From IMG/VR virus record IMGVR_UViG_3300028284_000001: 64,000 nt of DNA; one strand, written 5' to 3'. Below, piece by piece: positions 4,917-34,100 of this stretch (position 1 is the first letter of the stretch; each line of letters begins with the position of its first letter). Origin of the DNA: a virus. A model generated the notes under the pieces. That model was not told the DNA's origin. It was given only the letters and a program-made list of their open reading frames with translations, and made no database searches. Both the position numbers and the translations under genes were made by a program.

Positions 4917-5594
4917 CTAAAGTTCGTAGATAACTGGTACTCCATTTTCAATACAAAGATACTCATACGGGAGTGCGTCAACAAAATAGTGGTTATCATC
5001 ATAATCGATTACTCTCATATTAGTATGCCCAACAACTTGTATAATAGTATCGTTAAGGGGATTACGTCTTAGGGCTTGAGGTCTAATCCACATTGGACCT
5101 TCACCATCATAATTACCATACATTTCCATACCACTATGATTAAACGATCTCTTATCATAAGACCAAAGATCATTAATTTGTTCTGGGATATTACCGCCTT
5201 CTGGGAAATTAGTGTCATACCATTCTTTCGAAACACCAGCGTGTGTAAATAAAAACTTATCTACCTGATATGCTACTTGTAAATGTTCTTTAGTTTCTCG
5301 TAAGAGTTCACCGATTTCTGGTGCGTGCCATGTATTATATCCGCCATATCGACCGCCACATTCTGACATATAATGAAAGTCATGGTTACCGATCAACATA
5401 GTTACTTTAACATCAGCAGATTCTTTCCATGCAATAATCTCTTTATAGTTGTAAATTTGTTCCGCATGTGAAATAGAGAATGAGTCAAAGTAATCTCCGA
5501 TGAATACAAACTCAGTAGCATCAGGGTTTAACTCGATAAGTTTCTTCCAACTATCATGCCCATGTACATCTCCTATTACTACTATTTTACTCAT
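4917..5594 (-). CDS. Calcineurin-like metallophosphoesterase
   Basis: GDVHG, GDYFD, GNHD, THAG and VGHT motifs. Confidence 0.92.
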   Translation of the reverse strand: MSKIVVIGDVHGHDSWKKLIELNPDATEFVFIGDYFDSFSISHAEQIYNYKEIIAWKESADVKVTMLIGNHDFHYMSECGGRYGGYNTWHAPEIGELLRETKEHLQVAYQVDKFLFTHAGVSKEWYDTNFPEGGNIPEQINDLWSYDKRSFNHSGMEMYGNYDGEGPMWIRPQALRRNPLNDTIIQVVGHTNMRVIDYDDNHYFVDALPYEYLCIENGVPVIYEL

Positions 5595-5773
5595 TTTAAT
5601 TTCTTTTTAAAAATAATTAATTTTAATTGGATATAGAACTTAATATCGTAATACCACTTAAACTGCTTTCTTCTCTTTGCTTTCTTAATCCAACCAGAAT
5701 CTTTAAATGAGATTCGTTTTACCCAATCGGAAATTGATTCGCCTTCGTATCTAGCATCGCGGTGTTTATTCAT
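5591..5773 (-). CDS. Small basic hypothetical protein (probable start MNKHRD at 5773)
   Basis: The ORF track starts it at 5833, but that extension overlaps the 45-aa ORF. The ATG at 5771-5773 is coupled to that ORF's end (GATGAATAA). Confidence 0.55.
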   Translation of the reverse strand: MNKHRDARYEGESISDWVKRISFKDSGWIKKAKRRKQFKWYYDIKFYIQLKLIIFKKKLK

Positions 5774-5903
5774 CTTTCTTTTTATGTTTCTTTGTTCGTG
5801 TATATTGTTTTTTACTCTTATGAACATTACCACGCATAGCCTGCCATATCTCTTGTATGGTAAACTGTGTCTTTTGTAGTTTTTTATTTTCTTTCTTGTC
5901 CAT
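5766..5903 (-). CDS. Unannotated 45-aa basic protein, ArfA/BrfA-like ribosome rescue factor candidate
   Basis: MDKKENKKLQKTQFTIQEIWQAMRGNVHKSKKQYTRTKKHKKKDE, directly behind a conserved early promoter. The KSKK-x-Y-x-R-x2-KH tail resembles the ArfA/BrfA C-terminal KH motif. The ORF is well supported; the function is inferred. Confidence 0.6.
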   Translation of the reverse strand: MDKKENKKLQKTQFTIQEIWQAMRGNVHKSKKQYTRTKKHKKKDE

Positions 5904-5909
5904 TGTGTA

Positions 5910-5952
5910 TAATTACAGTACTAATATACGAATAATTTCTGACATAAAAAAA
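5910..5952 (-). promoter_or_regulatory. Early (host sigma) promoter cassette TTTTTTATGTCA-N5-TATTCGTATATTAGTACTGTAATTA
   Basis: Near-identical to the copies at about 20214-20256 and 51565-51607. TATATTAG is one mismatch from the Bacteroidota -7 consensus TAnnTTTG. Confidence 0.75.
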
Positions 5953-5963
5953 TCTAGAGGCAC

Positions 5964-7118
5964 TTATTTGTAAAGTTTTGCAAACTTTTCTGCTTCGATC
6001 TCTTTTATCTTATCTGCGATTGCAGGTCCTTTTACATCAAACTGCTTCATAACATCGCCGCCATTAGTAGATGGCTTGTATTTAATGAATGCCTTTATCA
6101 TTTTAATGTCTAACCTATTTAGCTTTGCAAACTCTAAAATAATCTTTTTATCTAGCTTTACAATATCTCTCTTTTTACTTACATCAAATACAGTCTCTGG
6201 TTTTAGAGTCATTAATGATTTAAGAAATAAAATAGAATCTATTTCTTTACTTGAAAATGTTAGCCTATTTAATTGAGATTTTATTTGATCGTTTTCATTA
6301 ACACCAAATAGAGTTGCAATTTGAATTATCCAATCCCTAGTATCGATAAATCTTTTATCTACATAAACAGTAGGAAACATTACTGGCCACATCTTAAAGT
6401 ACTCTACCATCTCCAAGTATTTCTTTGGGGACTTAGCAGTAGTTACAGATTTCTTAAATTCATCTCTAATTCTTTCTGGACTAATATCTTCTAATGAGTT
6501 ATCACTAATAATAGCTTCTGCTGTATTCTTTTCTAGTTTACTACCAGTTCTACCAGCAAATCTTAGGGCTCTTAATTTTCTTAGAGGATCTTCTTCAAAT
6601 CTCTCCTGAGCTCTACCGACAGTTCTAATAGTATTACTTTGAATATCTGCAATACCACCAACTAGATCGACAACTTCTTGAGTTTCAATATTGTAAAATA
6701 GTGCATTAATTGTTAAGTCTCTCCTTAGAACATCTTGATCTATTGTAGAAAACTTCACGGCATCAGGTCTACGACCCTTTCCAATGTCTTCTCTAAATGT
6801 TGCAATTTCCATGCCCTCAGCAAAGCTAGGAGTTTTAGCAATTACAACTCCAAACTGTTGTCCTACTTCTCCGATGGTTGGAACACCACCTGATTTTAAG
6901 ATCTTAATTACTTCTTCTGGTTTTGCATCAGTAGCTAAATCAAAGTCTTTTGGTTTTTGCCCAAGCATTGCATCTCGCACTGCACCACCAACTACATAAA
7001 GTTCTCTTTTATTTTTCTTAAAGAGTTTATGTAAATCGATGACGTCTTTAGGTACATTCATCTTAAGCCTCTGTTGAGCCTCTAGTAATAACGTGTATTG
7101 TGAGTATGATTCTAACAT
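5964..7118 (-). CDS. cca: Class II tRNA nucleotidyltransferase (CCA-adding enzyme / poly(A) polymerase family)
   Basis: VGGAVRD, DFDLATD, EIATFR, RRDLTINAL, RFEEDPLRKLRALRF (EDxxR nucleotide-selection motif) and ISPERI. Confidence 0.9.
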   Translation of the reverse strand: MLESYSQYTLLLEAQQRLKMNVPKDVIDLHKLFKKNKRELYVVGGAVRDAMLGQKPKDFDLATDAKPEEVIKILKSGGVPTIGEVGQQFGVVIAKTPSFAEGMEIATFREDIGKGRRPDAVKFSTIDQDVLRRDLTINALFYNIETQEVVDLVGGIADIQSNTIRTVGRAQERFEEDPLRKLRALRFAGRTGSKLEKNTAEAIISDNSLEDISPERIRDEFKKSVTTAKSPKKYLEMVEYFKMWPVMFPTVYVDKRFIDTRDWIIQIATLFGVNENDQIKSQLNRLTFSSKEIDSILFLKSLMTLKPETVFDVSKKRDIVKLDKKIILEFAKLNRLDIKMIKAFIKYKPSTNGGDVMKQFDVKGPAIADKIKEIEAEKFAKLYK

Positions 7119-7138
7119 GGTTTATATATTTAACTTAT

Positions 7139-7206
7139 CTAATATACGAAAAAAGACCCAAACAAAAAAATGTTTAGGCCTTTATTTTGTTAAAGTTATT
7201 AACAAT
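7139..7206 (-). promoter_or_regulatory. Early promoter variant upstream of cca
   Basis: TTCGTATATTAG core with upstream TTTG; also carries the TGTTAATAACTTT...CAAAATA element seen at 20178-20201. Confidence 0.6.
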
Positions 7207-7944: not shown

Positions 7945-8514
7945 TTATTTTGCGTCTATTTGAATGTATTCAGCGTCTCTAAGTTCAAGATTGTTATTAC
8001 CAACCTGTCTATCGTATTCACCATAGATAACATCTTTTTTACTTGCTACTGGAGAGTTCATCATTCCAGTCTTATCTATTTTTCTACCTAATTTATTACC
8101 GTTAGCATCATCCATAAAACCAACATTAATTACCATTTCATTCCATGTTGCGTATGATATGTATAAATCCCCAGAACCGTCTGATGAGTTTAAGCCATTA
8201 ACTTCGTCAGCTTTCCATTCTTCACTTAAATTAGCAGTTACAAATAATACCGTCTCCATATCTTTTGTTCCTTTTTCAACTTGATCCAAGATGATTTTTT
8301 CAGCATCTTTCTTAAAACTCTTCCATTCTTTATTAACTTCTTTTAGAGTTCCATCTACATCACCTTCATATTGAATCTTTTCGATTTCTTTTTTAAAGGC
8401 TTGCATTACTTTTCCTATTAACCCCTTAGAAGTATAAAGTCCAGTCATTCTATATGCTTTTTCGTTTAATTTTTGTGAAGCTACAAATGCTTCAAATAAT
8501 TTTACGTGTTTCAT
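7945..8514 (-). CDS. Putative internal head protein
   Basis: N-terminus MKHVKLFEAFVASQKLNE|K is CTS-like. Confidence 0.6.
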   Translation of the reverse strand: MKHVKLFEAFVASQKLNEKAYRMTGLYTSKGLIGKVMQAFKKEIEKIQYEGDVDGTLKEVNKEWKSFKKDAEKIILDQVEKGTKDMETVLFVTANLSEEWKADEVNGLNSSDGSGDLYISYATWNEMVINVGFMDDANGNKLGRKIDKTGMMNSPVASKKDVIYGEYDRQVGNNNLELRDAEYIQIDAK

Positions 8515-8535
8515 AGTTGTTTTTATTTAATTGTA

Positions 8536-10692
8536 TTACCAAGCGTAATCGAATCCTTCGATTTTAGCTATTTTTTCTTTAAGTGATAAAGCGTAATTCT
8601 TAATCTCTTTTTTATACCAAGATTCAGATGAACCAAATCTTTTTTCAGATTCTTCTTCTTGTCTAACATAATCACAATATCTAGAATAATCATCTAATAT
8701 ATTTGACATGTGATTAGAAGCATCTCTTAATTTAACCTCTTTTCCTTTTGCACTTTGACCAATTTTGATTTCTTCATATCTAGTCTTTTCACCACTAGCT
8801 AAACCTGCTTTAATTTGATCGGTTAACATATCGATTGCATCTGCTACCATTTTATCTAATGGCATTGTTGCAGCCTTAGTAGCTAAAATTTGGTGGTATC
8901 TGTCGTTGTTAGCTTTCTTAAAATCTTTATCATTAGTAAATGCAATTGCACCTGATTTAGCTTCAGCTCTAGCTGCTCTTAATTGGTCAGTAGAATACTT
9001 TTGTCTAATTAGGTCTAGGTTAATAACAAGAACTCTATCAGAAACTTCTGCGATTCTTTTACCATTATTAAGTCCAGTTCCTGACCAGCCTCTGTATTTA
9101 TGTGATACACCAACTTGGTCATCAGAACCTTTTTTACCGTCTTTTTTAAATGATTTAGTTCTTGAATATCTAGACCAGTCATTAGTATAGAATTCTCTAT
9201 CACCAGACATTGCTGCTATTAGAAGACCTCCACCTGGTACAGTTTTTAAAGAACCATAACCAGCGTCATAAGGACAGTATGGGTTATCTTTTTCGTTATC
9301 AGATATAAAGAATAATATATGCTTTGATCCACCATGTTCTTTAAACACCTTAGTTGGATCATTACTTATTACCATATCCTCATCACCTACTTTATCTAAT
9401 GCAACTTTAGCTAATCCGTAAAAACCACCAGCTAGTGACTTTAAATTTTCTTTACCGTATTTACCTTCTTTGTTACTCATCAAAATGCTAGCTAGCAATT
9501 GGCTACCTATTTTTTCATTTAAGAATCCAGATGCTCCAACAAAGTCAGAGAATGATTCATGTAAAAATATATTTTCCATATTTGTTGTTTGTGTTTTAAT
9601 ATTTTCTAGAAGACCTATTGCAATATCATTGACTTCTCTATCTCCTTTGTCAACATATCTTTTATTAACAATCATAAAAGTAAATCCATCTGCTGTTACT
9701 TGGTAATGTGGCATCATGCCTGTACCAAAGTCGTATTTATATTTAGCTGCTTTTAATTCTTTACCAACGTCCATAAATGATTTAGCTTTACCTACTAATT
9801 CAGCAAGCTTATCTAAGTGTGTTCCAGCGTCATCCTTTTCGTTAACTGCTGATTCGGCTAATCCTTGCTTTTTCATTAGAGCTAGTTCATCTTTACATGC
9901 CTTGTTAAATTTCTTAAAGTGCGGTATTGCAGATTTAGAATATCCATCTTGAAATAATTCAATTGCCATATTCAGATGGCTTGCTATTTCGTCAGCTTGT
10001 TCATCACCTATTTCTTCAAAATCATCAGAAAGTCTTAGTAACTTTTTCTCACCCGTTCCCTTTGAAGCGAATAAACCAAGTTTTAGTAATGCAACAATTG
10101 GCTCTTCTTTAGCTTCAGTAACTGATTCGTCCACTCTTGTTAAAGTATCGTAATAAATATCATCTATATTACCTGAGTTATCAAAGTTATATCCTACTGA
10201 TGCGTCGATAGTCCATTCTTTTCCATCTTGGTCTGTACCCATAAAGTATACATCCTTTCCTTCGTTTCCGTGGTCATCGATAACATCATAATCATCAAAT
10301 TCTACTTCATACTTTTTACTACCGTCTTTAAATTTAATAATAGGCCAATCATCTTTAGTGATTTTAATAGCTTCAGATATAGGGAATGCTTTTAATGTAG
10401 GCGTGTCTAATTCGCTTAAAATTCTAAGACCCCATTTTGAAAGCTTAACACCATCCTCAGAAACAAAGAAATATTTTGAATTTGAAGATCTCCACCTGTT
10501 AGGACTTTTAGATACCTTTGAAAGTATTTTAGTAAATTCCTCTTCTGTTAATATTCCGTCTTTTACTGCTTTTAAAATTTCGTTTCTAACATTAGCTGTT
10601 TTGCCAACAGTAGATGCAGGGTGGTTTTCAGTATACTTTCTTTTAATCTGTATCTTTTTACCTTCTTCTAAAAAATCTTTGAATTTATTCAT
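8536..10692 (-). CDS. Putative internal head polyprotein (718 aa)
   Basis: N-terminal MNKFKDFLEE|G, a second CTS-like motif (ESFSDFVGASGFLNE|K), and several [ILV]-x-E sites between apparent domains. Confidence 0.6.
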   Translation of the reverse strand: MNKFKDFLEEGKKIQIKRKYTENHPASTVGKTANVRNEILKAVKDGILTEEEFTKILSKVSKSPNRWRSSNSKYFFVSEDGVKLSKWGLRILSELDTPTLKAFPISEAIKITKDDWPIIKFKDGSKKYEVEFDDYDVIDDHGNEGKDVYFMGTDQDGKEWTIDASVGYNFDNSGNIDDIYYDTLTRVDESVTEAKEEPIVALLKLGLFASKGTGEKKLLRLSDDFEEIGDEQADEIASHLNMAIELFQDGYSKSAIPHFKKFNKACKDELALMKKQGLAESAVNEKDDAGTHLDKLAELVGKAKSFMDVGKELKAAKYKYDFGTGMMPHYQVTADGFTFMIVNKRYVDKGDREVNDIAIGLLENIKTQTTNMENIFLHESFSDFVGASGFLNEKIGSQLLASILMSNKEGKYGKENLKSLAGGFYGLAKVALDKVGDEDMVISNDPTKVFKEHGGSKHILFFISDNEKDNPYCPYDAGYGSLKTVPGGGLLIAAMSGDREFYTNDWSRYSRTKSFKKDGKKGSDDQVGVSHKYRGWSGTGLNNGKRIAEVSDRVLVINLDLIRQKYSTDQLRAARAEAKSGAIAFTNDKDFKKANNDRYHQILATKAATMPLDKMVADAIDMLTDQIKAGLASGEKTRYEEIKIGQSAKGKEVKLRDASNHMSNILDDYSRYCDYVRQEEESEKRFGSSESWYKKEIKNYALSLKEKIAKIEGFDYAW

Positions 10693-10694
10693 AG

Positions 10695-11090
10695 TTATTT
10701 AAGCTTTTTTGTTATACCATCAATTTCTGTATAGGCACAGTTTTGTCCCTTAACAATAAATGATCCATAAGAGATTGAAAGGTTTGCACCTTCACCTCCT
10801 GTTTTAACATGGGTTTTATATGCTTCTTCTATAGAGGCCTGATCTGCAGCAACAGCTACAACTTTAGGTCTAAAGCCGGCACCGACATTATGATCATTTT
10901 TAGATCTCAGATACATTGATTCTCCATTTATTTCTACTGTATTATGTAGTACTAAAGCGAAACTAGTTTCTCCTTTAGCTGGTAAATCAAAACCATCAAA
11001 TGAATATTTACTAAAGTAGTAAGATCCAAGCGCTATTTTCTCATTAACTACGTTATGAGTAAATGCTTCAAATGTGTTTATTGATTTCAT
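10695..11090 (-). CDS. Putative internal head protein
   Basis: N-terminus MKSINTFEAFTHNVVNE|K is CTS-like. Confidence 0.6.
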   Translation of the reverse strand: MKSINTFEAFTHNVVNEKIALGSYYFSKYSFDGFDLPAKGETSFALVLHNTVEINGESMYLRSKNDHNVGAGFRPKVVAVAADQASIEEAYKTHVKTGGEGANLSISYGSFIVKGQNCAYTEIDGITKKLK

Positions 11091-11110
11091 GTTTTAGTTA
11101 GTTTATTTGT

Positions 11111-12970
11111 TTATATATTCTTTAGAAAAGTATTAAAGGTTTGAAAATCTACTTCTGTAGATTCAGCTACTACTCCAACAGAGTTCTCTAATTTAGTTTT
11201 TAATTCTGCATACATACTATGTAATGCTTTAGGAGTTAGCTTCTTAAATAACTTCTCATCGCCGTCTAGCATTGCATTTCTTACTTGTGTTGCTGAAATA
11301 TTCTTACCTGTTCTAGGAATTTCAAATAATCCGAAATCATCTCTAACACCTAAGTCATCTCTATATTCTTGTTTATCTACTTGATATCCATAAGTCTTCA
11401 TTCTATCACTTCCTGTTCCCCATAATACTGGTTCGTATCTAGGTCTCATTGCATTAAACATGGTGTCAATACCTCCTGTTGGAATTACAAAAACTTGTTC
11501 GATTGGATATTTAGATTTTAAAGAGTTAATCATTGCCACTTGAGTGTCCTCATCATAAGGTCTTTTAAATGCATCTTCCTTTTTCTTATTCTTAGCCTTA
11601 ACTAATAATATTACTACTGGATATCCATTTTGTTTATGAATAGTTTCAACTACTTTAGCATGGCCTAGTGTGAATGGTTGGAATCTACCAACAAACATAT
11701 TAACTAGTTTTTTACCTTGTCCTGGATAATCTACCTTTAACGCTTCGGTAATTGGACTTATTTGAGTACTAATTTTCTTATTTGATAAATATTGGTTAAA
11801 GTTCATAACATCACCTTCGTTAGCTTTTGCCATTATTTTATCATCAATTTTTTCAACAATGCCATTTAACGCATCTAGCATATCACCTTGTAGAAGATCT
11901 GTACCCTTGCTTCTTTTCTTTCTAAAACTACCTAATGTAATTTTAAATAATTCTGCTAGAGTTTTATCTTGTATTAATGTTAGAGTTTTTTCATTAGTTA
12001 TGAACTTATGATTTAATTCAAACATTGGAGACTCTGCAAAATCAGCAGAATCAAATTTAGCACCAATATATTTAGTAGCATTCTTTTCAACATATTTGTT
12101 AAATACACTTGACATTAATTCTAAATATCTATAATCAGCAGATTCAGATGTTAATTCTACTAAACTAATATCCTCTTGTATAAAAAATTCTACAATATCT
12201 AAAATAGAAATCTGATACATGTCAGAAGGTTTTCTATTCTCTTTAGTTTCTTTATTAAATCTTTCTAATACAAATGTTTGTAATGTTTTTCCATCATGTA
12301 TATTAATAATAAATCCTGCAACTTCTTTAGAAAGATCGTTCATTAAAGTAGATTGCTTTAAGTTCTCATTAAAGATTCCATAAACACTTCTTGTAAAATT
12401 AGGTCTATCTTTATTTTCATACTTATCCGTATATTCATTAATACTAGTAGATAACATTTCTTTAAGACCGTCCTTTTGACCTGAATGTAAAAAGCCTTCA
12501 AAAATAACTGGAGGTCTTTGTACTTCTAAAAGATCTGCCCATTTATTTAATATTTTAGTATCTCTAATTACTTTTCTAACTTTATTAGGATTAGATGGTT
12601 GTAATACTTGGATATGTGTTAACACTAAATTAGATTTAGGTAGTACATCATATTCAATATCAATAGTTTTGTTATCTCCTAAATATTCAAAACCAAACTT
12701 CCAATCAAATGGCATTTCTTCTACAGAATCAGAAGCAACTGTTTTAAAGTGTCTAATTGCATTTTCGTAGTATCTTACAATAGTACGATCTACTACATTC
12801 ATCTTATCTTTAGAACCTGATTTATAGAATGCAAATTCAGAACCTTCTCTTTTAGCGTGAAAAGATGAACCATCAATTTTTTCTGTTACAACACATTTGT
12901 TTGATAACAGTTTATCAATGTCATTAATATTAGATCCTTCAAAATATGTTTTTAAATTCTGTAGTGCCAT
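11111..12970 (-). CDS. Fusion of an RNA-ligase-like adenylation domain and an HxGH (cytidylyltransferase/NMNAT-like) nucleotidyltransferase
   Basis: N-terminal VTEKIDGSS (ligase motif I) and GFEYL; C-terminal GRFQPFTLGH, GSDR and ISATQVR; a CTS-like linker lies between them. Confidence 0.8.
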   Translation of the reverse strand: MALQNLKTYFEGSNINDIDKLLSNKCVVTEKIDGSSFHAKREGSEFAFYKSGSKDKMNVVDRTIVRYYENAIRHFKTVASDSVEEMPFDWKFGFEYLGDNKTIDIEYDVLPKSNLVLTHIQVLQPSNPNKVRKVIRDTKILNKWADLLEVQRPPVIFEGFLHSGQKDGLKEMLSTSINEYTDKYENKDRPNFTRSVYGIFNENLKQSTLMNDLSKEVAGFIINIHDGKTLQTFVLERFNKETKENRKPSDMYQISILDIVEFFIQEDISLVELTSESADYRYLELMSSVFNKYVEKNATKYIGAKFDSADFAESPMFELNHKFITNEKTLTLIQDKTLAELFKITLGSFRKKRSKGTDLLQGDMLDALNGIVEKIDDKIMAKANEGDVMNFNQYLSNKKISTQISPITEALKVDYPGQGKKLVNMFVGRFQPFTLGHAKVVETIHKQNGYPVVILLVKAKNKKKEDAFKRPYDEDTQVAMINSLKSKYPIEQVFVIPTGGIDTMFNAMRPRYEPVLWGTGSDRMKTYGYQVDKQEYRDDLGVRDDFGLFEIPRTGKNISATQVRNAMLDGDEKLFKKLTPKALHSMYAELKTKLENSVGVVAESTEVDFQTFNTFLKNI

Positions 12971-14241
12971 TATCTTCCGTATTTTATGATACCCATTAGC
13001 TGGTTAATCGCAGCAAAAGTACCGGTTAGTTTAAAGGTTTTTCCTTTAAATTTAAAGACCACTCCTTCTGTTGGGATGATCGACTCAATACCACCAATTC
13101 CCTCTAGTCTTTTTAGTTCTTTTTCAACCTTTGCAATTTGAGTAAGGTCGCCATTCTTTTTAATCTTGCCAGCTTCAGTTCTAATCTGATTATGTAATCT
13201 TGCTTTTTCAGCATCTGGATTAGCAGCTACAAAATTAGAAGCGTTCTTTAAAACATCTGCACCTAACTCTAAAAATAGATTCTCAAAAGGTAAAATGTTT
13301 TCTTTATACTTCTTATTTCTTTGACCATCAAAATCTTTAACAGCCTTATTTTGTTCCGGTGTTAATTCCTTCTTTAATGCAGTTAACTTAAGCGTCTGCT
13401 TATCTAAGTAAGCCCATCTTAAAAGTAAACCCTCTTTGTGTGCAGGTTCTAAGTCTGCAAAGTTCTCTTCGATTTGGCCTCTCCACCACATCTCGTGATA
13501 CATTTTAACCTCATCAGTATCTGATAGACTATAAGTATCTCTTAGTTTATTTATCGCCTTTTCGTAATAGCCTACTCTATCATCAAAGTTAATGTCTTTT
13601 CCTAACTTTAAAATTTGAGGGGGAATTATTGTAAACGTCTTTTGAACATCTGACTTTAATTCTTTAAGAGCTTTAACTAGTTCTGTAGCAATATTTTGTT
13701 TTCCAGTTTGATTACCTTCACCATCAGTCTCTACAATACCATGAAATTGTATAACATCTCTGTCATAATAGATAACATTAGGGTTTTTAGAGTAAATTAG
13801 TTCCATGTTAACGAAATTTAATCCGTTCGCGAACATTGATTGGTCCTTAAGCGCTGGGAGCGCCGCTGCTAGATCTTTAGCAGCAAAGATATATGTTTCT
13901 TCAACCAGCTGTGAGGCATGACCAGTGAACATCGTAATGATGCCTGCTAGATCAAGTGGGTTTATCATTTGCCCCTTATTTCTGGCAAACATTGCTTGAC
14001 CATCTTTTACAGTTGCAAATAGGTTTTGACCATCAGTCTTTTCAGTTGCAGCCTCTTCGAAATCTAGTCCACCCTGTAATGAAGATTTAACAATAGTCTT
14101 GAAATCTGCAAAAGTTAATGAGTGGTCATCGAAGGGGTGCATCATGTGTCCTGCTGCTCCACCTTCAAATACGAAAGAGTCCAAGTTGTTCACTTGGATT
14201 TTCTCGTTTAAAAATTCTGTAAAATTAGTGTATATCTTCAT
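12970..14241 (-). CDS. ATP-dependent ligase-fold protein (DUF6267-like) with CTS leader
   Basis: GGAAGHMMHPFDD; motifs I (TEKTDGQN), Ia (ARNK), III (NMELIY), IIIa (IQFHG), IV (EGVVF) and V (FKLTG); leader MKIYTNFTEFLNE. Confidence 0.75.
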   Translation of the reverse strand: MKIYTNFTEFLNEKIQVNNLDSFVFEGGAAGHMMHPFDDHSLTFADFKTIVKSSLQGGLDFEEAATEKTDGQNLFATVKDGQAMFARNKGQMINPLDLAGIITMFTGHASQLVEETYIFAAKDLAAALPALKDQSMFANGLNFVNMELIYSKNPNVIYYDRDVIQFHGIVETDGEGNQTGKQNIATELVKALKELKSDVQKTFTIIPPQILKLGKDINFDDRVGYYEKAINKLRDTYSLSDTDEVKMYHEMWWRGQIEENFADLEPAHKEGLLLRWAYLDKQTLKLTALKKELTPEQNKAVKDFDGQRNKKYKENILPFENLFLELGADVLKNASNFVAANPDAEKARLHNQIRTEAGKIKKNGDLTQIAKVEKELKRLEGIGGIESIIPTEGVVFKFKGKTFKLTGTFAAINQLMGIIKYGR

Positions 14242-14261
14242 AAGAAGTTTTTAGATTTATT

Positions 14262-15695
14262 TTATCCTAATGATGCTGTTAATGCACCGACAGCAGCTCC
14301 GTAATCGTCACCGTGCTTAGACAATAATCCGTCTACAACTTCTTGTGCTTTTTCTTCGTCAAATTTATCACCGAAAGCTTTTCCTAAAACTGAGAAGGCA
14401 TACTCTTTAAAATCTTCATCAGACTTTACTTCTGCTTCGTTAGTAGCTTCAGTTTCAGTTTCTTCAGTTGTAGCTTCAGTTTCAGTTTCTTCAGTTGTAG
14501 CTTCAGTTTCAGTTTCTTCAGCACCTTCTTCTACAACTTCTTCTTCTTTAATAACTGGAAAGTTCTTACCATTAAATTCAAATTCTGCAGCATCTTCTTC
14601 AATTGCTTTAGCTCTTGCTGCTAAAAATGCATTGCCTTCGTTCATTACTGACTCGTTAGCCCATATTAATTCAAATGCATCTACTATTTTTTGTGCTTGT
14701 TGAGAATAACCAAATCCATCTAAGAATAAAGCCATACCTTCAACAATACCGATACCAGACCATCCTGCAGCGTTAGCTAATCCAGAATAATGATTATCTA
14801 ATAAACTCATGATTGATTTTTTACCAACTGGAACTTCTAAACCACCTAGGTTATCGATCTTTACTGAAACAGTAGTAATCTTACCACCAAGTGCTTTACT
14901 TACTGGATCTTTATATGAATGGAAGTTAGCGTCTGTTAAAGATTCTGATAATAAATATCTACAAACTCCTAATAAGAGCTGACCGTCCATTAATGCAGTG
15001 TGATTCGTAAAGAATGATTCTAACCATTTAGATACTTTCTTAGCATCTCTTAAATTACCCTTAGAAGGTTTAAATGATTCATTGATTATCATAGATTCAA
15101 ATGCTGGGACTAAATCGTAACTATCATAAACATCAACCATATACCATTTCTTATCTGTTTCAGAATATAGGTAGATAAATTCAGCTCCACCGTTATTAGC
15201 GGCATCTTTTACGAACTTCTCAGTATCTTTCATATCTCCGTCAGTAGTGGTCTTGTCGCCGTAGAATTTAATATCGTCTACATTTGCTTCTAGACCTGAA
15301 CCACCCCCTTTCTTCAGTAGAGTGTCTACTGCCTTTCCATCTTTGTAACCCTTTTTAATTGTAGGTAACATGTGGTCTGGGTAACCATCATAGTGCATAT
15401 ACACTGTTGAGATTTTTCCGTTCTTTTTGATTTTACCGATTTGTGATCTTGTACCCTCTTCAATGATCGCTATTGATTCTGATATTTCAGAACTACCTAA
15501 CTTTTGATAGAATGTATGTCTGTCTTCTTCTTTAAGTTCTTTAATAGAAGTTACTCCGAACTCTCCAAGTAGATTTTTAAACTGATCTGCAGCTACATTT
15601 CTTGCAGCTGATTGTTCTTCTTCTAATTTAGCGTTAGCTAGCTTTTTAGCACCATGTGCAAAATCTTCAAAAGATTGTAATTTTAATGATCCCAT
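14262..15695 (-). CDS. Putative internal head/core polyprotein with a YxHxDGYP domain
   Basis: Leader LQSFEDF; candidate cleavage sites IIEE|G, IINE|S, VMNE|G and ATNE|A; YMHYDGYPD motif; acidic tandem-repeat linker. Confidence 0.55.
   Translation of the reverse strand: MGSLKLQSFEDFAHGAKKLANAKLEEEQSAARNVAADQFKNLLGEFGVTSIKELKEEDRHTFYQKLGSSEISESIAIIEEGTRSQIGKIKKNGKISTVYMHYDGYPDHMLPTIKKGYKDGKAVDTLLKKGGGSGLEANVDDIKFYGDKTTTDGDMKDTEKFVKDAANNGGAEFIYLYSETDKKWYMVDVYDSYDLVPAFESMIINESFKPSKGNLRDAKKVSKWLESFFTNHTALMDGQLLLGVCRYLLSESLTDANFHSYKDPVSKALGGKITTVSVKIDNLGGLEVPVGKKSIMSLLDNHYSGLANAAGWSGIGIVEGMALFLDGFGYSQQAQKIVDAFELIWANESVMNEGNAFLAARAKAIEEDAAEFEFNGKNFPVIKEEEVVEEGAEETETEATTEETETEATTEETETEATNEAEVKSDEDFKEYAFSVLGKAFGDKFDEEKAQEVVDGLLSKHGDDYGAAVGALTASLG
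14443..14521. repeat. 27-bp in-frame tandem repeat (about 2.9 copies) encoding EETETEATT
   Basis: Unit gtagcttcagtttcagtttcttcagtt repeated head to tail. Confidence 0.95.
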
Positions 15696-21464: not shown

Positions 21465-21842
21465 TTAGATTCTTTTACCCATCGCAGCACCTAAAGCAGC
21501 ACCGACTAATCTGGAGGTTAATAAATCGTAAAAGATACCTTTTTGAATACCTAGTACTTTACAAATAACTTTACCAACTGATTTACCTAAAGCAAATCCA
21601 GCTAAACCACCAAAGATAGAACCTAAAAGACCTTCATTCATAAAAGCTTCTTCTAATTTGTCTAATTCAAATGTACCATCTTCTTTTTGGTATTGTTGTA
21701 CAAATTGCTCTAATGCAAAATCTACTTTATCTTCTAAGTCTTGCGACCATTCTTGTTGAAGCCCTTCTTGTAAAAGTTTCATATCAGTGTCAGTTAGCTT
21801 TTGCTCAACTAAGTACTGGTTAAATGTTTTAGTATCTTTCAT
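21465..21842 (-). CDS. CTS-bearing virion protein with an acidic pro-region and a Gly-zipper cationic C-terminal peptide
   Basis: MKDTKTFNQYLVE leader; FMNE|GLLGSIFGGLAGFALGKSVG...LVGAALGAAMGKRI; GATATATA at 21847-21854. Confidence 0.65.
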   Translation of the reverse strand: MKDTKTFNQYLVEQKLTDTDMKLLQEGLQQEWSQDLEDKVDFALEQFVQQYQKEDGTFELDKLEEAFMNEGLLGSIFGGLAGFALGKSVGKVICKVLGIQKGIFYDLLTSRLVGAALGAAMGKRI

Positions 21843-28117: not shown

Positions 28118-31100
28118 TTATGACTTTATTTTTACCATAGGTCTAACTTCGTAAGAGTAGCCTAATCTTTTATTATATATCAACCTAAAATTAAGAGGCT
28201 GTTGTTCGTGTGATTTAAACGTAAAGTTTATATCATTAGAGAATGCTCCATCGTCTAAATTATCAATGCTGTCTGTTGATAAAATTTCAGAGAATTGACC
28301 CTTTCTTCTACTTGTGTATAATTTTATTTGATCTAAATTAAATGTATTAAGTAGGTTGTTTTCAACGTATAATAACGCATCATCTTTAGTTGTTGTTTTG
28401 TCACCTGCAGAATTAACAGCAGTTACAAATTTATTTATTGAATTTAGTACACCATCTGAAGATAATAACTTCTTAAGCGTCGATGTAATATAAAAATCCA
28501 TATAAATGTAATCCTTATTTTCAAATGATACTACATCATACTTTTCATCACCGTTAGCTAAAATTCGATCTTGCTGTTCTTGTGTTTTAGTAGCATACGA
28601 AGTAAAGTTAGTAATATTATATGAATCTTTTATCTTCATAATAGTAGAGCCTAAATAAGATCTTTCTTCTTTAGTTTCAAAAGTACCAGGTACTTGTTCA
28701 AATAAACCACCGGACAAACTTCTAGTATAATAGTTTTTATCCCAAGAAGACTTAAATACATTTATATCTTTTTTGTCTATTGTAACCTCACCGATTAAAG
28801 GATAAAGAGGTAATTTATCAGTAGACTCAGATAGTTTAGTTACTGCCGCAGCATTAGTTTCATTTACTTTTCTGTAAAAATGATTTTTAATAATACCCCA
28901 TCCATTATCATGTATGTTACGATCTTGTATGTAACCTAAGTTAAATGAAGTTCCACATCTATTATATTTCTTATAGTAATCTCTAGCCAATTCAACTTCT
29001 TTAGCATTTGTTAATGAATGCTTATACATTGATTCTTCAAATAAGATTTCAGTTGGGTTAGCAGTAGACTGTAAAGTGTTTGTTTTAAAATGAGTATATG
29101 TGTCAGTAAAAGTTACAATCGGATTTGTTGATATTGTATAATCACCATTATGTCTAACTAAGAATGGATAATATGTATCACTTACAGATAATTCGTAACC
29201 TATTGTACCTTGTTTTAATTTAAACGTTTTAGGCTTTTCTTCGTCTGACACTGTAACTAACATAGATTGTTTAATTACTTCTACTCCACTTTCGAATTGA
29301 ATTTCAAATCTATTAGAATTAATAGCACCATCAATCTCAACTGTTGTATATTTAATTGAACCATCATTATTCTTTAATAAATCAGACACCGCTGATACTG
29401 ACAGACTGCCTAAGATCGAAGTGAAGGCATTTTTACCCCCGCCTTTATATACATAAGTAGCAGACGTTTGAAGATAACCAGCAATATTAGAAACATTAAC
29501 CGGGTTGCCGTTTAAATCAACAGGGGCTGATGTTAAAGTAAGTTGAGCTTGGTCATCAATAGATGCAATCTTTAATTTAAAAGTAACAGGACCACTCGAG
29601 TCTTGCACCGTTACATATATGTTTCCAAATACTTCATTTTCATCTGGATTAATTTGATCTAAGAATTGAGGTAATCCCCCATCAACATGATCTATTCCAC
29701 TCGCTATTAAATAATCAGCAGCAGTTGGATCTGTAAAATTAATGTCATTCAGATTTAAAGCTCCGCTTATAGCAACGTCAGAATAACTAAAGTTTTCTGT
29801 CTCATGGTTCCATACAAAGCTGTGATTCATTTCATATAATAGTTTCCTATTTAAAGCACCATCAATCCATAAATCATCCATAGATATTGTAATTAAAAAT
29901 ACAACAAATTCAAACTCCTTATTTTGAATAACTTCATATTCAATGTCGTTCGTAGCTTGTCCACCTCTAACCATAACTAAAGTACTAAACTTATAGCCAT
30001 TAAATTCAGAAGATTTCACAAAATCATTAGTTGTAATATTTTCAAATTCTTTTCTATTCTTAAAAGAAACTTTAATACCTTTAAATAAAGTACTACCAAA
30101 CGATGCGTCGTTACCGCCTGAAACATTTGTATATTTCTTTTGTAAATTTGTTTTAATAAAAGATTTAATACCGTTACTATCAGTTTTCTCAAAACCTTCA
30201 GTTACCATAAATCTATCAAAGTAATTATATGAAGTGCTCTTAAAGTGAGATGCATTTAATTCAAAACCTTCTAAGAAGTTTACATAACTAAACGTATCAT
30301 TAAGCTGATCGTATTTTAAATATTTTGGTACATTATCTAAATAAAACCACTCATGTGTCATACCTAGTCTATCTCTACCTTCAGCATCAAAATCTGGTGA
30401 GAAGTTAGTTCTTCCAAATGCTTCGTTTGAGTTTAAATGATAACCCTCTTCTCTTACAGTCGTACCATCTTTTAATACCCACTTGTTAATATTAGGAGTT
30501 ACTCTAGATCTTACTGCAAATTGCTTAAGATTATTTTCTTGTAATCTATCATATTCACTCCATAGTTTAGATTCGTTATATGAATCCAATCCTTCTTCTG
30601 GTAAAATACCTCCAATACCAGTAAAGTAATTAACAGGCTCATCTTCAAATTCACTATCGAAAACGGTTAATGTGTTAGTAGTACTTTGTTGAGGTTCATA
30701 ATTAATATTAGCCGGAGTTTCAAATTCTAATTCTTTTAGATCTGAATTTGATATATCATAAAAATCAAAATCCATATCATGAATATCGTACGCTGAAAAT
30801 AAACCAATCCTAGCAACATTATCTGCATATACATTTTGCTCTCCAGAAGCTAAAGTGTTTATGTCTTCTAAAATAATTTTATTGTATATAGTATCAGCTC
30901 TTTCTATATCTTCCACTATATCAATAACTTTGTTGTACACATTGTCTGAATTTGTAGCAATTAAATCACCAACATTAATGTCAGCAACAGAATCTTTAGT
31001 TACTAATATAGATTTCCCAGCAGAATTACCGCCGTTCATATAGTACACTTGATTTACATTAAATATAACATCGCTTAAATTAAGCAATCCATTTGTATTA

Positions 31101-34100
31101 GCATTTGTTATAGAATCTCTATTGTTTACATCTAAGAAAACAGCAGAGTTTGCATTAGGAATTAAAATACCTGATTGTAATCTTCTATAACCTTTAATAT
31201 TTGATTTGACATAAAAGTAATCAGCACCATCTTCAATAATAGCCGTAAAATCAATAGGACTATTATTAACACATTCCGTAATTGCTTTAGCAATATCAGC
31301 AAAGTTACCTTGAGATGAGAACGAAGTGCTCTCGTATGTACCTGATGGTAAAACTGGCGAAGCAAAGAATGTTGAATTATCTAATTTAACGCTTGTTTGA
31401 ATTTCAGACACTTTAGCGATTGTACTTGAAGTTAAAGGAACCGTAGCTTCAAAAGATATTTCTAAATCTGAAAGAGTTGCATACTTATCTGTAATATAAA
31501 TAGTTTTATCTATATCAGATCTTTCTATTTTAATACCAGCACTATTACCGTCTGGGTATAAGTTTTGAATAGTATCAAATGTATCTGAAAGAGTTGTTCC
31601 CGTAGCTATTACGTGTTCAATTGGAGTACCTCCTTGTATATTTAGCTTTAACTTCCAGCCTTCACCTGCAATATGTCTTAAGAATTTAATAGAATATGCA
31701 GATTCTTTAGAATCAAAAATTACAAATCTATCATTAGATTGTGGAATTCCAGTTACCTGTACTTTATTAAAATCAAAACCTGCTGAATCTTCTTTAATAA
31801 CATCTATAGAGTTACCATTAGCAGCTAGTTTTATTTCAGAAGAAATACTATTATCACTATCTTCTACAATTACATTTAAACTGCTAGTCTCATAAGCAGC
31901 CCTAGATGATATTTTATAGAATGTATCACTTACCGCAACATAACCTAAAGTTGGAGTTCCGGAAATATGTTTGAATGAAGGTATTGCAGATTCTGGAGAG
32001 TCATTAATATCAGAGCTTAAAGTCTTAAATATAATGTTTCCATTTTCTGCTGTAGATATACTACCACTTCCTGAATCAATATCGTTTACATAAAGTCCAA
32101 AATATCTATTAATAGAATAATCAGAAGCGCTGTTATCATCAAATAAGAATTCTAAATTAATAAGATTTGCACATGCTAAGTTGTTTCTTTGAAAGCCATC
32201 ACTAATAATTTGATTACTAGCAATTAATGGACTATCATTTCTTACAAAATCTTGATATAAAAATTCAGGCTTTGATGCAAATCCGCCTTTAACTAAATCA
32301 ATACCTCTGAAATTTGATTTCTCACCTTTAGCAAAATTAAATTGTATTGGCGATTTAGGGAATGCTTCTGCATTAACGTGATTTCTAATATATTTACCTA
32401 AAGAAGATTCTGAAGTTAAATCAAATGTCTTAACAATCTCAGAGTGTTTAAGTATATCTTGTATGTTTTCTAAATTAGATCTATCGTCAAAATCTAATTC
32501 TCCAACTGGATCGTTAACTCTAAATACTACAAATTTCTTAGGAACTTCTTTATCCAACCAGATTGGAGCTAACATTCTAAAATCTTCATCATGAATTTTA
32601 GAGTAATTATATGTAGTACCATAATGATACACTTCTTCTATTTGCTTATTGAAACTATCTTGAACTGAATAGTCAGAATAATCTGATCTCGTAGCAAACA
32701 TTATATCTCCTGGCGTGTAGTTAGACTTATAGAATCTCTGTAAATCATAAGACCATTTACCTGTAGCATTAAGTTCCCATTTTTTATATTCAATAGATGC
32801 TAATTCTTTTGTAGCATCAATTGATTCAATAAAGATCTTATTAGAACTATTAGCAACTAATTTTGCATTAGTAGATAATTTAGGGTTTGTTCTTAACAAT
32901 GGTTTAGAAACGTTATCCAACGTGTAGTTTGTTTCTAAATCAAAATTAGGTAAATTTCTATTTGTAATTATTGCATTATCAAGCGTTGGAAATGTATAAG
33001 ATAGCCATGTTCCAGTTTCTGAATCACACAAATAACAAATGCTTCCATTTGCACTACTTTCTACAATATCTTGTTGATATAATACCGTTGAGTTACTACC
33101 AAATCCTAAATCAACCGGGTTGATAGATATTGGTTTTAAGTCAACATCTAAATTTTGTTGATATGTTCCTATTTCAACTTCTAACTTGTCAATTGCATCT
33201 TCAATGTTAGTTGCTATAATTCTATTAATATAGGTATAACAATTACCATCTACTTTAATTTGCGCACGTTCTCCTAAGTTTAAAACATCTGAAGTTCTAA
33301 GAGTTTTAATGAAATCTAAAATATAAGAAACATCATCTCCGGATTCTGATGCAAAATGTAAACCATCTATTACATATAATGGGAAATAAGGCTGGGTTCC
33401 AGTAGTTAATCCCGGATCTAATTGAGCTTCACATCCATAAAAAACATAATACATCGATTTAGAAGAATCGCTTTCTAGCCCAATCGTAGTATCATTTGGT
33501 GGTCCTATAATAGGCAAATCTAAAAGAGGCCTTACGTAATCGGCGTTTGGCAAACCAATGCCGTCACCACAACCTCCTAATATAGAGCCTACGTTTGCAA
33601 TTTCCAATACATTGTCTGAATCAAAACCGTACCACCTGGTCGATCCTGCATATCCAGTTGCATTATCATTATCCCATACTACGAAACCTCCTGTGGTAGC
33701 GTCTAATATCACTGAACTAGGCTGTAATAGTGTATAATCTAGAACAGTAGCTCCTCCTTGTGTAGCAAAGACTCTAACTTGTTTTTGGGCTAATTGTAAT
33801 AATGTATAATCAGGTGATGTTCCATTAGGATCTGGTATACCATTACCATCTAATCTTGGAGATCTATACCATATAATTATGTCATCAAATAATGTATTAA
33901 CATCTGCCCATGTTTGGTAAGTTCCGAATACATTACATACCGACCCAATATCTGTTGGATCTGGCGTAAACCATTTTACAGAAAGCCATTTAGTATCATA
34001 TACTGTTGCAGGAACACATTCAAATAAATTTGGATCAGGTGCACCAGACACTCCATTTGCTAGCCAAATGCCGGCGTCGACAATATAGTATTGTAATGGA

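What the first reader, a model, noticed from the sequence alone, without database searches (positions are those of the whole stretch)
11111..14241. Packaged two-gene ligase-fold / HxGH nucleotidyltransferase module of unknown chemistry
Seen: the 423-aa protein has a complete set of ATP-dependent ligase motifs I-V, and predicted cleavage at FVFE would expose GGAAGHMMH. The coupled 619-aa protein has motif I (EKIDG) but a degenerate motif IV/V region (EVAGFII, no clear motif V Lys), then a CTS-like linker, then a GRFQPFTLGH nucleotidyltransferase. Inference: head maturation releases three units, namely an active adenylating enzyme, a possibly inactive paralogue partner and an NMNAT/CTase-like enzyme. 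Candidate roles are RNA repair after anticodon-nuclease attack, rebuilding NAD+ or handling signalling nucleotides against defence systems, or nucleotidylating host proteins.
Basis: partly seen in the sequence, partly recalled or inferred. Interest (0 to 1): 0.8.

Follow-up and report, generated by a model that had tools for sequence, protein, structure and literature searches.

The report
Capsid-tagged phage RNA-ligase and nucleotidyltransferase pair

Summary
Both ORFs and every quoted motif are real. The 423-aa protein folds confidently (pLDDT 90) as a ligase nucleotidyltransferase domain with a ~175-aa helical insert. Its catalytic residues (K68, D70, G71, R87, G393, K404) are invariant in 148 of 148 diverse relatives, yet no Pfam, PHROG or NCBIfam model matches it.

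Residues 1-240 of the 619-aa protein superpose on T4 RNA ligase 2 (Z 12.1), but its catalytic motifs decay in a patchwork. Its C-terminal domain is a HIGH-superfamily nucleotidyltransferase. That domain is nearest to NMNAT but scores far below the NMNAT cut-offs.

The two genes are adjacent in 80 of 80 related viral contigs. In distant relatives the 423-type domain is fused to cytidylyltransferase-like domains, P-loop kinases, HD domains and a CCA-adding domain. RNA (tRNA) repair is therefore the best-supported role.

The 423-aa protein carries a T4-like capsid-targeting leader. The same leader sits on a small ORF between the portal and prohead-protease genes. Packaging is therefore plausible but unproven. 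"Three released units" and the transferase chemistry remain inference.

The scan reached the same reading on other genomes (e1-5648246, e1-5362685, e1-5347061).

Verdict: a new variant of a known kind, of moderate to high interest.

The parts
12970..14241 (-). 423-aa gene: RNA-ligase-like covalent nucleotidyltransferase of an unmodelled phage family (called LIGx here)
   Evidence: ORF. No Pfam, PHROG or NCBIfam hit. AF2 pLDDT 89.9. Fold matches are RNA ligases at Z 8-9.2. 1769 relatives at E<=1e-3.
14203..14241 (-). Residues 1-13, MKIYTNFTEFLNE: T4-like capsid-targeting leader ending in L-x-E
   Evidence: F10 and E13 are each kept in at least 90% of 53 unique orthologues. T4 IPII and IPIII start MKTYQEFIAE, verified in NC_000866. 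Model pLDDT is below 50 here.
14176..14202 (-). Residues 14-22: spacer that varies in sequence and length
   Evidence: Orthologue alignment shows low conservation and indels. The model is disordered here.
14125..14175 (-). Residues 23-39, FVFE|GGAAGHMMHPFDD: hallmark N-terminal motif of the family and candidate second Glu cleavage site
   Evidence: G27, G28, G31, H32 and H35 are each kept in at least 142 of 148 relatives. The residue before GG is E in 116, C in 15 and M in 12. Minimal homologues end their leader at ...E|GG.
14029..14046 (-). Motif I, TEK68TDG: predicted AMP-accepting lysine
   Evidence: K68, D70 and G71 are invariant in 148 of 148.
13087..13614 (-). Residues ~210-385: all-helical insert between motif IIIa and motif IV; contains invariant R275
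   Evidence: Secondary structure of the model. The fold alignments cover about 184 residues spread over residues 29-416, so the insert is left unaligned.
13021..13074 (-). Motifs IV and V: P390-x-E392-G393...K404-L-T-G407
   Evidence: E392 146 of 148; G393 and K404 148 of 148.
11111..12970 (-). 619-aa gene: degenerate Rnl2-like ligase fold, helical domain, then HIGH-superfamily nucleotidyltransferase
12251..12970 (-). Residues 1-240: Rnl2-like nucleotidyltransferase domain with patchy loss of catalytic residues
   Evidence: VIA-align Z 12.1 against T4 Rnl2 residues 6-232. Within the clade K31 is K in 157 and R in 7, and it is D in 119 of 120 huge-phage homologues. The motif IV acid is D in 92, A in 37 and S in 33. 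The window protein has Q231 and V234 where most relatives have Lys.
11771..12223 (-). Residues ~250-400: helical C-terminal domain of the ligase-like module
   Evidence: Helices in the model; not matched separately.
11726..11824 (-). Residues 383-415: flexible linker with conserved F391-x-x-Y394-L395 and I-T-E409
   Evidence: pLDDT below 50 at 383-387 and 403-415. Invariant residues in A3. F391 is also conserved in stand-alone huge-phage homologues, so it may be part of the domain rather than a tag.
11171..11713 (-). Residues ~420-600: HIGH-superfamily (cytidylyltransferase-like, NMNAT-like) nucleotidyltransferase with GRFQPFTLGH and ISATQVR
   Evidence: PF01467 at E 3e-8. TIGR00125 is above its cut-off, while the NMNAT equivalogs score 34.7 bits against a 181-bit cut-off. 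PDB sequence hits to NadM and MJ0541 at E ~1e-3.
11114..11170 (-). C-terminal tail ...VVAE|STEVDFQTFNTFLKNI: leader-like aromatic motif at the extreme C-terminus
   Evidence: The TF-x-x-F-[IL]-KNI ending is kept in most of 58 unique orthologues. T611, F612 and F615 are invariant in A3.
7945..15695 (-). Surrounding run of six genes. Five have the N-terminal aromatic-x-x-aromatic leader (189, 718, 131, 423 and 477 aa); the 619-aa gene lies between them without such a leader
   Evidence: N-termini. A leader pattern is found in 8 of 100 ORFs against a 2.3% background, P 0.002, with a pattern chosen post hoc. That stricter pattern misses the 477-aa protein.
7152..7183 (-). Terminator-like hairpin (13-bp stem plus T run) that closes the gene block
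   Evidence: a consensus scan only.
5964..7118 (-). Neighbouring CCA-adding tRNA nucleotidyltransferase
   Evidence: PolyA_pol head domain at E 5e-34 plus the RNA-binding domain. NCBIfam CCA and PcnB models match at E 1e-51, below their curated cut-offs.
4917..5594 (-). Neighbouring calcineurin-like metallophosphoesterase, a candidate 3'-end healing enzyme
   Evidence: PF00149 at E 2e-13. The analogy to the CthPnkp and lambda phosphatase cyclic phosphodiesterases comes from PMC2190708.

Best explanation
The pair is an RNA (most likely tRNA) end-joining module of a T4-related marine giant phage.

The 423-aa protein is a working ATP-dependent RNA-ligase-type enzyme. K68 would take AMP from ATP, pass it to a 5'-phosphate RNA end, and the enzyme would then seal that end to a 3'-OH. 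It belongs to a large phage family with no database model. In this family the nucleotidyltransferase fold is split by a helical insert and preceded by a GGxxGHxxHPFD motif.

The translationally coupled 619-aa protein supplies two things. One is an Rnl2-shaped domain that has lost parts of its catalytic set and probably serves to bind RNA or a partner. The other is a HIGH-superfamily nucleotidyltransferase that is functionally tied to the ligase, because the two are fused in many relatives. Its substrate is unknown; it may be NMN or a 5'-phosphate end.

The 423-aa protein also carries a T4-type capsid-targeting leader. It is therefore probably loaded into the prohead, trimmed after Glu by the S77 prohead protease, and injected with the DNA so that it can act before phage genes are expressed.

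Shown: the folds, the motif conservation, the gene linkage, the fusions and the presence of the leader.

Inferred: RNA as the substrate, packaging and cleavage, and the role of the transferase.
For: Fold and active site of the 423-aa protein: the model has pLDDT 89.9. The 45 best VIA-align rows are all ligases or capping enzymes, with RNA ligases on top at Z 8-9.2. The catalytic residues are invariant in 148 diverse relatives. Three of 62 relatives weakly hit Pfam RNA_ligase. The model has no OB domain.

RNA repair: 36 long relatives carry the domain at their C-terminus together with CTP_transf_like (20 of 36), AAA_33/Zeta P-loop kinases (5), HD (2) and the PolyA_pol/CCA head domain (2). P0389 reads CTase, DUF5661, AAA_33 kinase, HD, CCA-adding, ligase. 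In the window, a CCA-adding enzyme and a metallophosphoesterase follow the block.

619-aa protein: Rnl2 fold at Z 12.1, patchwork motif loss, and PF01467.

Linkage: the genes are adjacent in 80 of 80 IMG/VR loci and in the 462-kb phage LR756500. Their stop and start codons overlap.

Packaging: the leader MKIYTNFTEFLNE resembles T4 MKTYQEFIAE (CTS biology from PMC9026906). The leader is conserved in orthologues while the spacer after it varies. The same leader sits on unrelated neighbouring proteins and on a 113-aa ORF between Portal_T4 and the S77 protease, which is followed by a Gp23-type capsid gene.
Against: There is no biochemical or proteomic evidence for any step.

Foldseek alone gives only E 7e-3 for the 423-aa model. 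Motif V has a single invariant lysine rather than K-x-K.

No polynucleotide kinase was found in the 100.9-kb fragment, but that fragment is only about 36% of the genome.

The 619-aa protein has no removable N-terminal leader. Its internal F-x-x-Y-L element also occurs in stand-alone homologues, so whether it is packaged is less clear.

The leader statistic used a pattern chosen after seeing the data.

The residue before GG is not always Glu.

Huge phages with the stand-alone pseudo-ligase gave no tblastn match to the 423-type ligase, so the two folds need not act together.
Confidence: 0.55

Rival explanations
1. This is an RNA-repair enzyme pair, but it is not packaged. The shared N-terminal aromatic helix is a common structural or translational feature, or a tag for some other site. 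The enzymes would then act in the cytoplasm during infection, like T4 Rnl1 and Pnkp.
For: T4's own RNA ligases are cytoplasmic enzymes (established knowledge). The block lies next to replication genes, namely a UvsW-like helicase and a primase, not inside the head module. The T4 late-promoter motif TATAAATA is not enriched. The 619-aa protein has no cleavable N-terminal leader.
Against: The leader closely resembles the verified T4 CTS. It is kept across 58-97% identical orthologues while the following spacer drifts. It occurs on a small ORF between the portal and prohead-protease genes. It recurs on unrelated neighbouring proteins.
Confidence: 0.25
2. This is an NAD+-centred counter-defence module. 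The HIGH nucleotidyltransferase would be an NMN adenylyltransferase that rebuilds NAD+ drained by host defences, and the ligase folds would have secondary or NAD-linked roles.
For: The nearest sequence relatives of the transferase are archaeal and NadM-type NMNATs. The GRFQPF-x-GH and IS-x-T-x-x-R motifs are NMNAT-like. Jumbo phages carry NMNAT-type NAD+ salvage enzymes (PMC7824862).
Against: NMNAT equivalog models score 34.7 bits against cut-offs of 127-181 bits. Only the generic family passes its cut-off. No NAPRTase/Nampt partner was found in the fragment (inconclusive). The domain's recurrent partners in relatives are a ligase, a kinase, an HD domain and a CCA-adding domain, not NAD+ salvage enzymes.
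Confidence: 0.12
3. The 423-aa enzyme acts on DNA (sealing nicks in the phage genome) or caps or nucleotidylates another target, rather than repairing RNA.
For: The covalent nucleotidyltransferase fold is shared by DNA ligases and capping enzymes, which appear lower in the list at Z 5-6.8. In LR756504 a stand-alone homologue of the 619-aa N-domain lies near a DNA ligase gene.
Against: There is no OB domain or motif VI. The top structural matches are all RNA ligases. The fusion partners are RNA end-healing and tRNA-end enzymes.
Confidence: 0.08

Closest known systems
ATP-dependent RNA ligases of the covalent nucleotidyltransferase superfamily (Naegleria NgrRnl/Rnl5, TbREL1, T4 Rnl1, T4 Rnl2, fungal Trl1 ligase domain)
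   Same: The 423-aa protein has the same nucleotidyltransferase fold (Z 8-9.2). It has motifs I, Ia, III, IIIa and IV and a motif V lysine, and no OB domain. As with Pnkp and Trl1, it is associated with kinase and phosphoesterase healing domains in relatives.
   Different: There is no significant sequence match to any Pfam, PHROG or NCBIfam model. A ~175-aa helical insert separates motif IIIa from motifs IV and V. Only one motif V lysine is invariant, and R275 in the insert is also invariant. The family has a hallmark GGxxGHxxHPFD N-terminal motif. It has a recurrent fusion or linkage to a HIGH nucleotidyltransferase.
T4 RNA ligase 2 (Rnl2) adenylyltransferase domain
   Same: Residues 1-240 of the 619-aa protein superpose on Rnl2 residues 6-232 (Z 12.1, rmsd 4.0, 189 residues aligned). 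The motif I context (V-T-E-K-I-x-G-S) resembles Rnl2's E-K-I-H-G-T. In T4, rnlB also lies close to uvsW.
   Different: The catalytic set is not conserved. The Lys is Arg in 7 clade members and Asp in 119 of 120 huge-phage homologues. The motif IV acid and the motif V lysines are lost in the window's subclade. The domain is fused to a HIGH nucleotidyltransferase. There is no Pfam RNA_ligase hit.
Archaeal and NadM-type NMN adenylyltransferases (MJ0541 1F9A; NadM 2QJO)
   Same: HIGH-superfamily Rossmann nucleotidyltransferase with GRFQPF-x-GH and IS-x-T-x-x-R motifs. These are the best sequence matches.
   Different: The scores are far below the NMNAT equivalog cut-offs. The first His of HxGH is Thr. 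In the HMMER alignment to 1F9A an invariant Arg (R509) stands where that enzyme has Trp. That this Trp contacts nicotinamide is my recollection and was not tested.
T4 internal proteins IPI-III and Alt with capsid-targeting sequences cleaved by the gp21 prohead protease
   Same: A short N-terminal leader with aromatic residues and a terminal hydrophobic-x-Glu. The genome has a T4-type portal, an S77 protease and a Gp23 capsid protein. The cargo genes vary between relatives.
   Different: The cargo here would be nucleic-acid repair enzymes rather than small basic proteins, anti-restriction factors or an ADP-ribosyltransferase. Packaging and cleavage have not been shown.
Bacterial Pnkp / Pnkp1-Rnl-Hen1 and fungal Trl1 heal-and-seal RNA repair enzymes
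   Same: Relatives combine a kinase, a phosphoesterase and a ligase in one polypeptide (P0389).
   Different: The ligase family differs. A CCA-adding domain and a HIGH nucleotidyltransferase are added. No Hen1 methyltransferase was seen. In the window the modules are separate genes, and no kinase was found in the fragment.

Membership tests
ATP-dependent RNA ligase (covalent nucleotidyltransferase superfamily): 423-aa protein | Ligase-type nucleotidyltransferase fold | tested here: met
   AF2 pLDDT 89.9. VIA-align Z 9.2 to NgrRnl, 8.5 to TbREL1 and 8.4 to T4 Rnl1, with ~184 residues aligned at rmsd ~4. Foldseek top hits are all RNA ligases but weak, at E 7e-3.
ATP-dependent RNA ligase (covalent nucleotidyltransferase superfamily): 423-aa protein | Motif I KxDG lysine nucleophile | tested here: met
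   K68, D70 and G71 are invariant in 148 of 148 relatives.
ATP-dependent RNA ligase (covalent nucleotidyltransferase superfamily): 423-aa protein | Motifs III, IIIa, IV and V | tested here: met
   E147 147 of 148; F166 138 of 148; E392 146 of 148; G393 148 of 148; K404 148 of 148. Caveat: motif V has one invariant lysine, not K-x-K.
ATP-dependent RNA ligase (covalent nucleotidyltransferase superfamily): 423-aa protein | Match to a curated sequence model (Pfam PF09414 RNA_ligase or similar) | tested here: not met
   No Pfam hit at E<=1 and none in PHROGs or NCBIfam. Only 3 of 62 relatives reach E ~1e-3 for PF09414.
ATP-dependent RNA ligase (covalent nucleotidyltransferase superfamily): 423-aa protein | Self-adenylylation and sealing of 5'-P/3'-OH RNA | not testable with these tools
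   Needs biochemistry.
T4 Rnl2-type RNA ligase: 619-aa N-domain | Rnl2-like adenylyltransferase fold | tested here: met
   Foldseek E 1e-7. VIA-align Z 12.1 for residues 1-240 against Rnl2 6-232.
T4 Rnl2-type RNA ligase: 619-aa N-domain | Conserved catalytic set (motif I Lys, motif IV acid, motif V lysines) | tested here: not met
   The window protein keeps K31-I-D-G but has A218 at the motif IV acid, and Q231 and V234 where most relatives have Lys. K31 is R in 7 of 164 clade members and D in 119 of 120 huge-phage homologues. LR756500 reads SENLDGS at motif I.
NMN adenylyltransferase (archaeal / NadM): 619-aa C-domain | Score above the curated NMNAT model cut-offs | tested here: not met
   TIGR01527 scores 34.7 bits against a 181.2 cut-off, and NF002243 scores 33.1 against 127.
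HIGH-superfamily cytidylyltransferase-like nucleotidyltransferases: 619-aa C-domain | Pfam PF01467 / TIGR00125 above cut-off, with (H/T)xGH and SxTxxR motifs | tested here: met
   PF01467 scores 34.4 bits against a cut-off of 21. TIGR00125 scores 36.8 against 27.7. GRFQPFTLGH and ISATQVR are in the sequence.
T4-type CTS-bearing packaged proteins | Short N-terminal leader with aromatic residues ending in hydrophobic-x-Glu | tested here: met
   423-aa leader MKIYTNFTEFLNE against T4 MKTYQEFIAE. It is conserved in orthologues. The 619-aa N-terminus is part of the fold and so is not a leader.
T4-type CTS-bearing packaged proteins | T4-type prohead protease and head module in the same genome | tested here: met
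   Peptidase_S77, Portal_T4 and Gp23 are present.
T4-type CTS-bearing packaged proteins | Presence in virions and cleavage after Glu | not testable with these tools
   Needs virion proteomics or N-terminal mapping.

The most novel reading that the evidence does not exclude
This would be an injected repair kit that is switched on by head maturation. Cutting at ...E|GG would expose the invariant GGxxGHxxHPFD N-terminus and so activate the ligase only after packaging.

The HIGH nucleotidyltransferase would use NMNAT-type chemistry, which forms an A5'pp5'N linkage, in one of two ways. It could adenylylate RNA 5'-phosphate ends directly, with the decayed ligase fold then sealing them without forming a Lys-AMP intermediate. 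Or it could regenerate NAD+ for an NAD+-using RNA ligase.

Either would be a new route of RNA ligation and the first case of RNA-repair enzymes delivered from a phage head.
Probability: 0.12. Interest if true: 0.85.

Novelty: new variant of a known kind. Interest (0 to 1): 0.6.

Why it matters
Phage RNA ligases and T4 head-packaged proteins are both textbook systems, but three things here are not described in the literature or databases I searched.

- **A large unmodelled ligase family.** It has 1769 cluster representatives at E<=1e-3, a split fold and its own N-terminal motif.
- **A recurrent tie to a HIGH nucleotidyltransferase.** I found no described role for such an enzyme in RNA repair.
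- **T4-type capsid tags on these enzymes.** If they are injected, the phage could mend tRNAs cut by host defence nucleases before it makes any protein of its own.

The family is abundant in marine viral metagenomes. It may also be of practical interest as a new RNA ligase scaffold.

Tried and rejected
- **Direct paralogy of the two ligase folds.** BLASTP and hhalign of A3 against A1 found no relation outside the transferase region. A narrow HMM of the 619-aa N-domain found no copy in 150 representatives of the 423-type family.
- **hhalign of either family against T4 Rnl2 as a single sequence.** Not significant.
- **PDB sequence search with the 423-aa protein.** Only chance hits.
- **DUF6267.** The ESM Atlas neighbours of the 423-aa protein carry PF19782 on about a quarter of their members. 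The window protein and 62 relatives do not hit it in Pfam, and no paper mentions it.
- **T4 late-promoter motif.** Not enriched. The sigma-70-type promoter scan stayed at chance level.
- **DNA-level repeats.** The start regions of the seven leader-bearing genes, compared by eye, share no long stretch; the likeness is at the peptide level.
- **Searches of the own fragment.** No AAA_33 kinase and no NAPRTase. This is inconclusive, because the fragment is about 36% of the genome.
- **tRNA genes.** None in the window.
- **Literature.** No paper on Mel-JY01 and none on a ligase-NMNAT module.

Full report
**Observation.** The two ORFs are as described. Coordinates 12970-14241 (-) give 423 aa and 11111-12970 (-) give 619 aa. 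The TAA stop of the first shares its last A with the ATG of the second.

**Genomic setting.** The window is part of a 100.9-kb IMG/VR viral contig that CheckV rates 36% complete. Contigs carrying near-identical genes reach about 250 kb.
- It is a T4-related myovirus. It has a UvsW-like helicase, a primase and a gp6-like baseplate wedge, and Portal_T4, an S77 prohead protease and a Gp23 capsid protein.
- The nearest deposited relatives are uncultured huge phages, for example LR756500 with 55% identity in UvsW.

**The 423-aa protein.** No Pfam, PHROG, NCBIfam or PDB sequence match was found.
- An exhaustive profile-free search found 1769 relatives among cluster representatives.
- Homology starts at about residue 21. 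In most hits the domain is the C-terminal ~400 aa of proteins 600-1900 aa long.
- With a 62-sequence alignment, AlphaFold2 gave pLDDT 89.9 and pTM 0.86. Residues 1-4 and 13-30 have pLDDT below 50.
- The Foldseek list is headed only by RNA ligases but is weak, at E 7e-3.
- VIA-align gives Z 9.2 to Naegleria NgrRnl, 8.5 to TbREL1, 8.4 to T4 Rnl1 and about 8 to Rnl2 and Trl1, with about 184 residues aligned. DNA ligases and capping enzymes rank lower.
- The aligned residues lie on both sides of a ~175-aa helical insert (residues ~210-385). Motifs IV and V therefore sit at the extreme C-terminus.
- In 148 diverse relatives K68, D70, G71, R87, R275, G393 and K404 are invariant. E147 and E392 are nearly so, as are G27, G28, G31, H32 and H35 of the N-terminal GGxxGHxxHPFD motif.
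- This is the conservation pattern of an active enzyme.

**The 619-aa protein.** To gain alignment depth I added a family of ~450-aa stand-alone homologues from huge phages. The model of residues 1-415 has pLDDT 84.
- It matches T4 Rnl2 with Foldseek E 1e-7.
- VIA-align gives Z 12.1 for residues 1-240 against Rnl2 6-232. The very N-terminus is therefore part of the fold.
- The catalytic set decays in a patchwork:
  - The motif I Lys is kept in 157 of 164 clade members and is Arg in 7. It is Asp in 119 of 120 huge-phage homologues and Asn in LR756500.
  - The D-G of motif I is Q-A in most of the clade.
  - The motif IV acid is Asp in 92 but Ala or Ser in the window's subclade.
  - The window protein has Q231 and V234 where most relatives have Lys.
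- Many non-catalytic positions are invariant. This is what a fold retained for binding rather than catalysis looks like.
- The two ligase folds are not detectable paralogues.
- Residues ~420-600 are a cytidylyltransferase-like HIGH nucleotidyltransferase (PF01467). The nearest relatives are NMNATs, but the scores are far below their curated cut-offs.

**Linkage.** All 80 IMG/VR loci recovered with the 619-aa family (57-82% identity) have the 423-type gene immediately upstream. The order helicase, 477-aa gene, 423, 619 is conserved. LR756500 has the same pair.

**Function.** The fusion partners are the strongest clue.
- Of 36 long relatives, 20 carry CTP_transf_like, 5 carry AAA_33/Zeta-type P-loop kinases, 2 carry HD and 2 carry the PolyA_pol (CCA-adding) head domain.
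- Microcystis phage Mel-JY01 has a transferase-ligase fusion.
- The 1930-aa P0389 reads transferase, DUF5661, kinase, HD, CCA-adding, ligase. That is a heal-and-seal plus tRNA-end array.
- In the window a CCA-adding enzyme and a calcineurin-like phosphoesterase follow the block. The phosphoesterase belongs to the superfamily of the CthPnkp end-healing phosphatase (PMC2190708).
- RNA repair, probably of tRNA, is therefore the best-supported role.
- The recurrent fusion shows that the HIGH nucleotidyltransferase belongs to the system. Its substrate is open.

**Packaging.** T4 IPII and IPIII begin MKTYQEFIAE (verified). Ten residues suffice for targeting, and gp21 cuts after the Glu (PMC9026906).
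- The 423-aa protein begins MKIYTNFTEFLNE.
- The pattern is kept across orthologues, while the following spacer varies in sequence and length. It is also kept in LR756500.
- Similar leaders head the unrelated neighbouring proteins.
- A 113-aa ORF between the portal and protease genes begins MKIYKTFEEFITE.
- A pattern chosen post hoc is found at 8 of 100 N-termini against a 2.3% background (P 0.002).
- In minimal homologues the leader ends exactly at ...E|GG, for example MRNIGPYLIE|GGAAGH.
- The residue before GG is, however, Cys or Met in 27 of 148 relatives.
- The 619-aa protein lacks an N-terminal leader. It ends in a conserved ...AE|S...TFxxF[IL]KNI tail, which might serve as a C-terminal tag.
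- None of this shows packaging or cleavage.

**Comparison and novelty.** The 423-aa protein works like an RNA ligase and meets the structural and motif criteria. It fails every curated sequence model and has a distinct topology. The pairing with a HIGH nucleotidyltransferase and the capsid tags is not described in the reviews I read (PMC7824862, PMC5512222) or found in my searches.

**Verdict.** This is a new variant of a known kind. Interest is 0.6.

Noticed in passing
window 7945-15695 and 21465-21842: A run of otherwise unrelated genes (189, 718, 131, 423 and 477 aa, plus a 125-aa ORF at 21465-21842) share an N-terminal M-K-x3-4-[FY]-x-x-[FY]-[LIV]-x-E type leader like the T4 capsid-targeting sequence. 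The content of the block varies between related contigs (the 131- and 189-aa genes are often absent or replaced).
   Followed up: partly
L089:4055-4396 (-) (own contig, outside the window): A 113-aa ORF starting MKIYKTFEEFITE lies between the Portal_T4 gene and the S77 prohead-protease gene. This is the position of T4 gp67/gp68 core proteins.
   Followed up: partly
L089:1813-3993 (-): The S77 prohead-protease domain occupies only residues ~27-160 of a 726-aa ORF. This suggests a protease-scaffold fusion.
   Followed up: no
L084:3938-5299 and L085:3887-5260 (LR756501, LR756504): A large family (1547 hits) of ~450-aa stand-alone ligase-fold proteins in huge phages has Asp in place of the motif I lysine (YEDIQGS). 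In LR756504 one lies near an ATP-dependent DNA ligase gene (L085:2130-3500).
   Followed up: partly
protein P0389 (1930 aa, metagenomic): A single polypeptide reads cytidylyltransferase-like, DUF5661, AAA_33 kinase, HD, CCA-adding head domain, then the 423-type ligase. It looks like a complete tRNA repair array.
   Followed up: partly
window 4917-7183: A metallophosphoesterase (4917-5594) and a CCA-adding enzyme (5964-7118) follow a strong terminator-like hairpin (7152-7183) that closes the leader-bearing block.
   Followed up: partly
window 14262-15695: The 477-aa protein combines a phrog_1987 domain (residues 81-193) with an acidic TEETETEAT repeat near its C-terminus. Its length varies from about 200 to 765 aa among orthologues.
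   Followed up: no
own contig 88990-95721 (outside the window): A second cluster of small ORFs begins MKHIK.../MKYI... with similar aromatic or Glu-rich N-termini.
   Followed up: no
window 28118-36325: A 2735-aa ORF lies in the tail and baseplate region. It was not examined.
   Followed up: no
window, 25 nt upstream of six leader-bearing genes: The upstream regions are A/T-rich with no Shine-Dalgarno-like purine run. The exception is GGAAGA before the coupled 619-aa gene.
   Followed up: no
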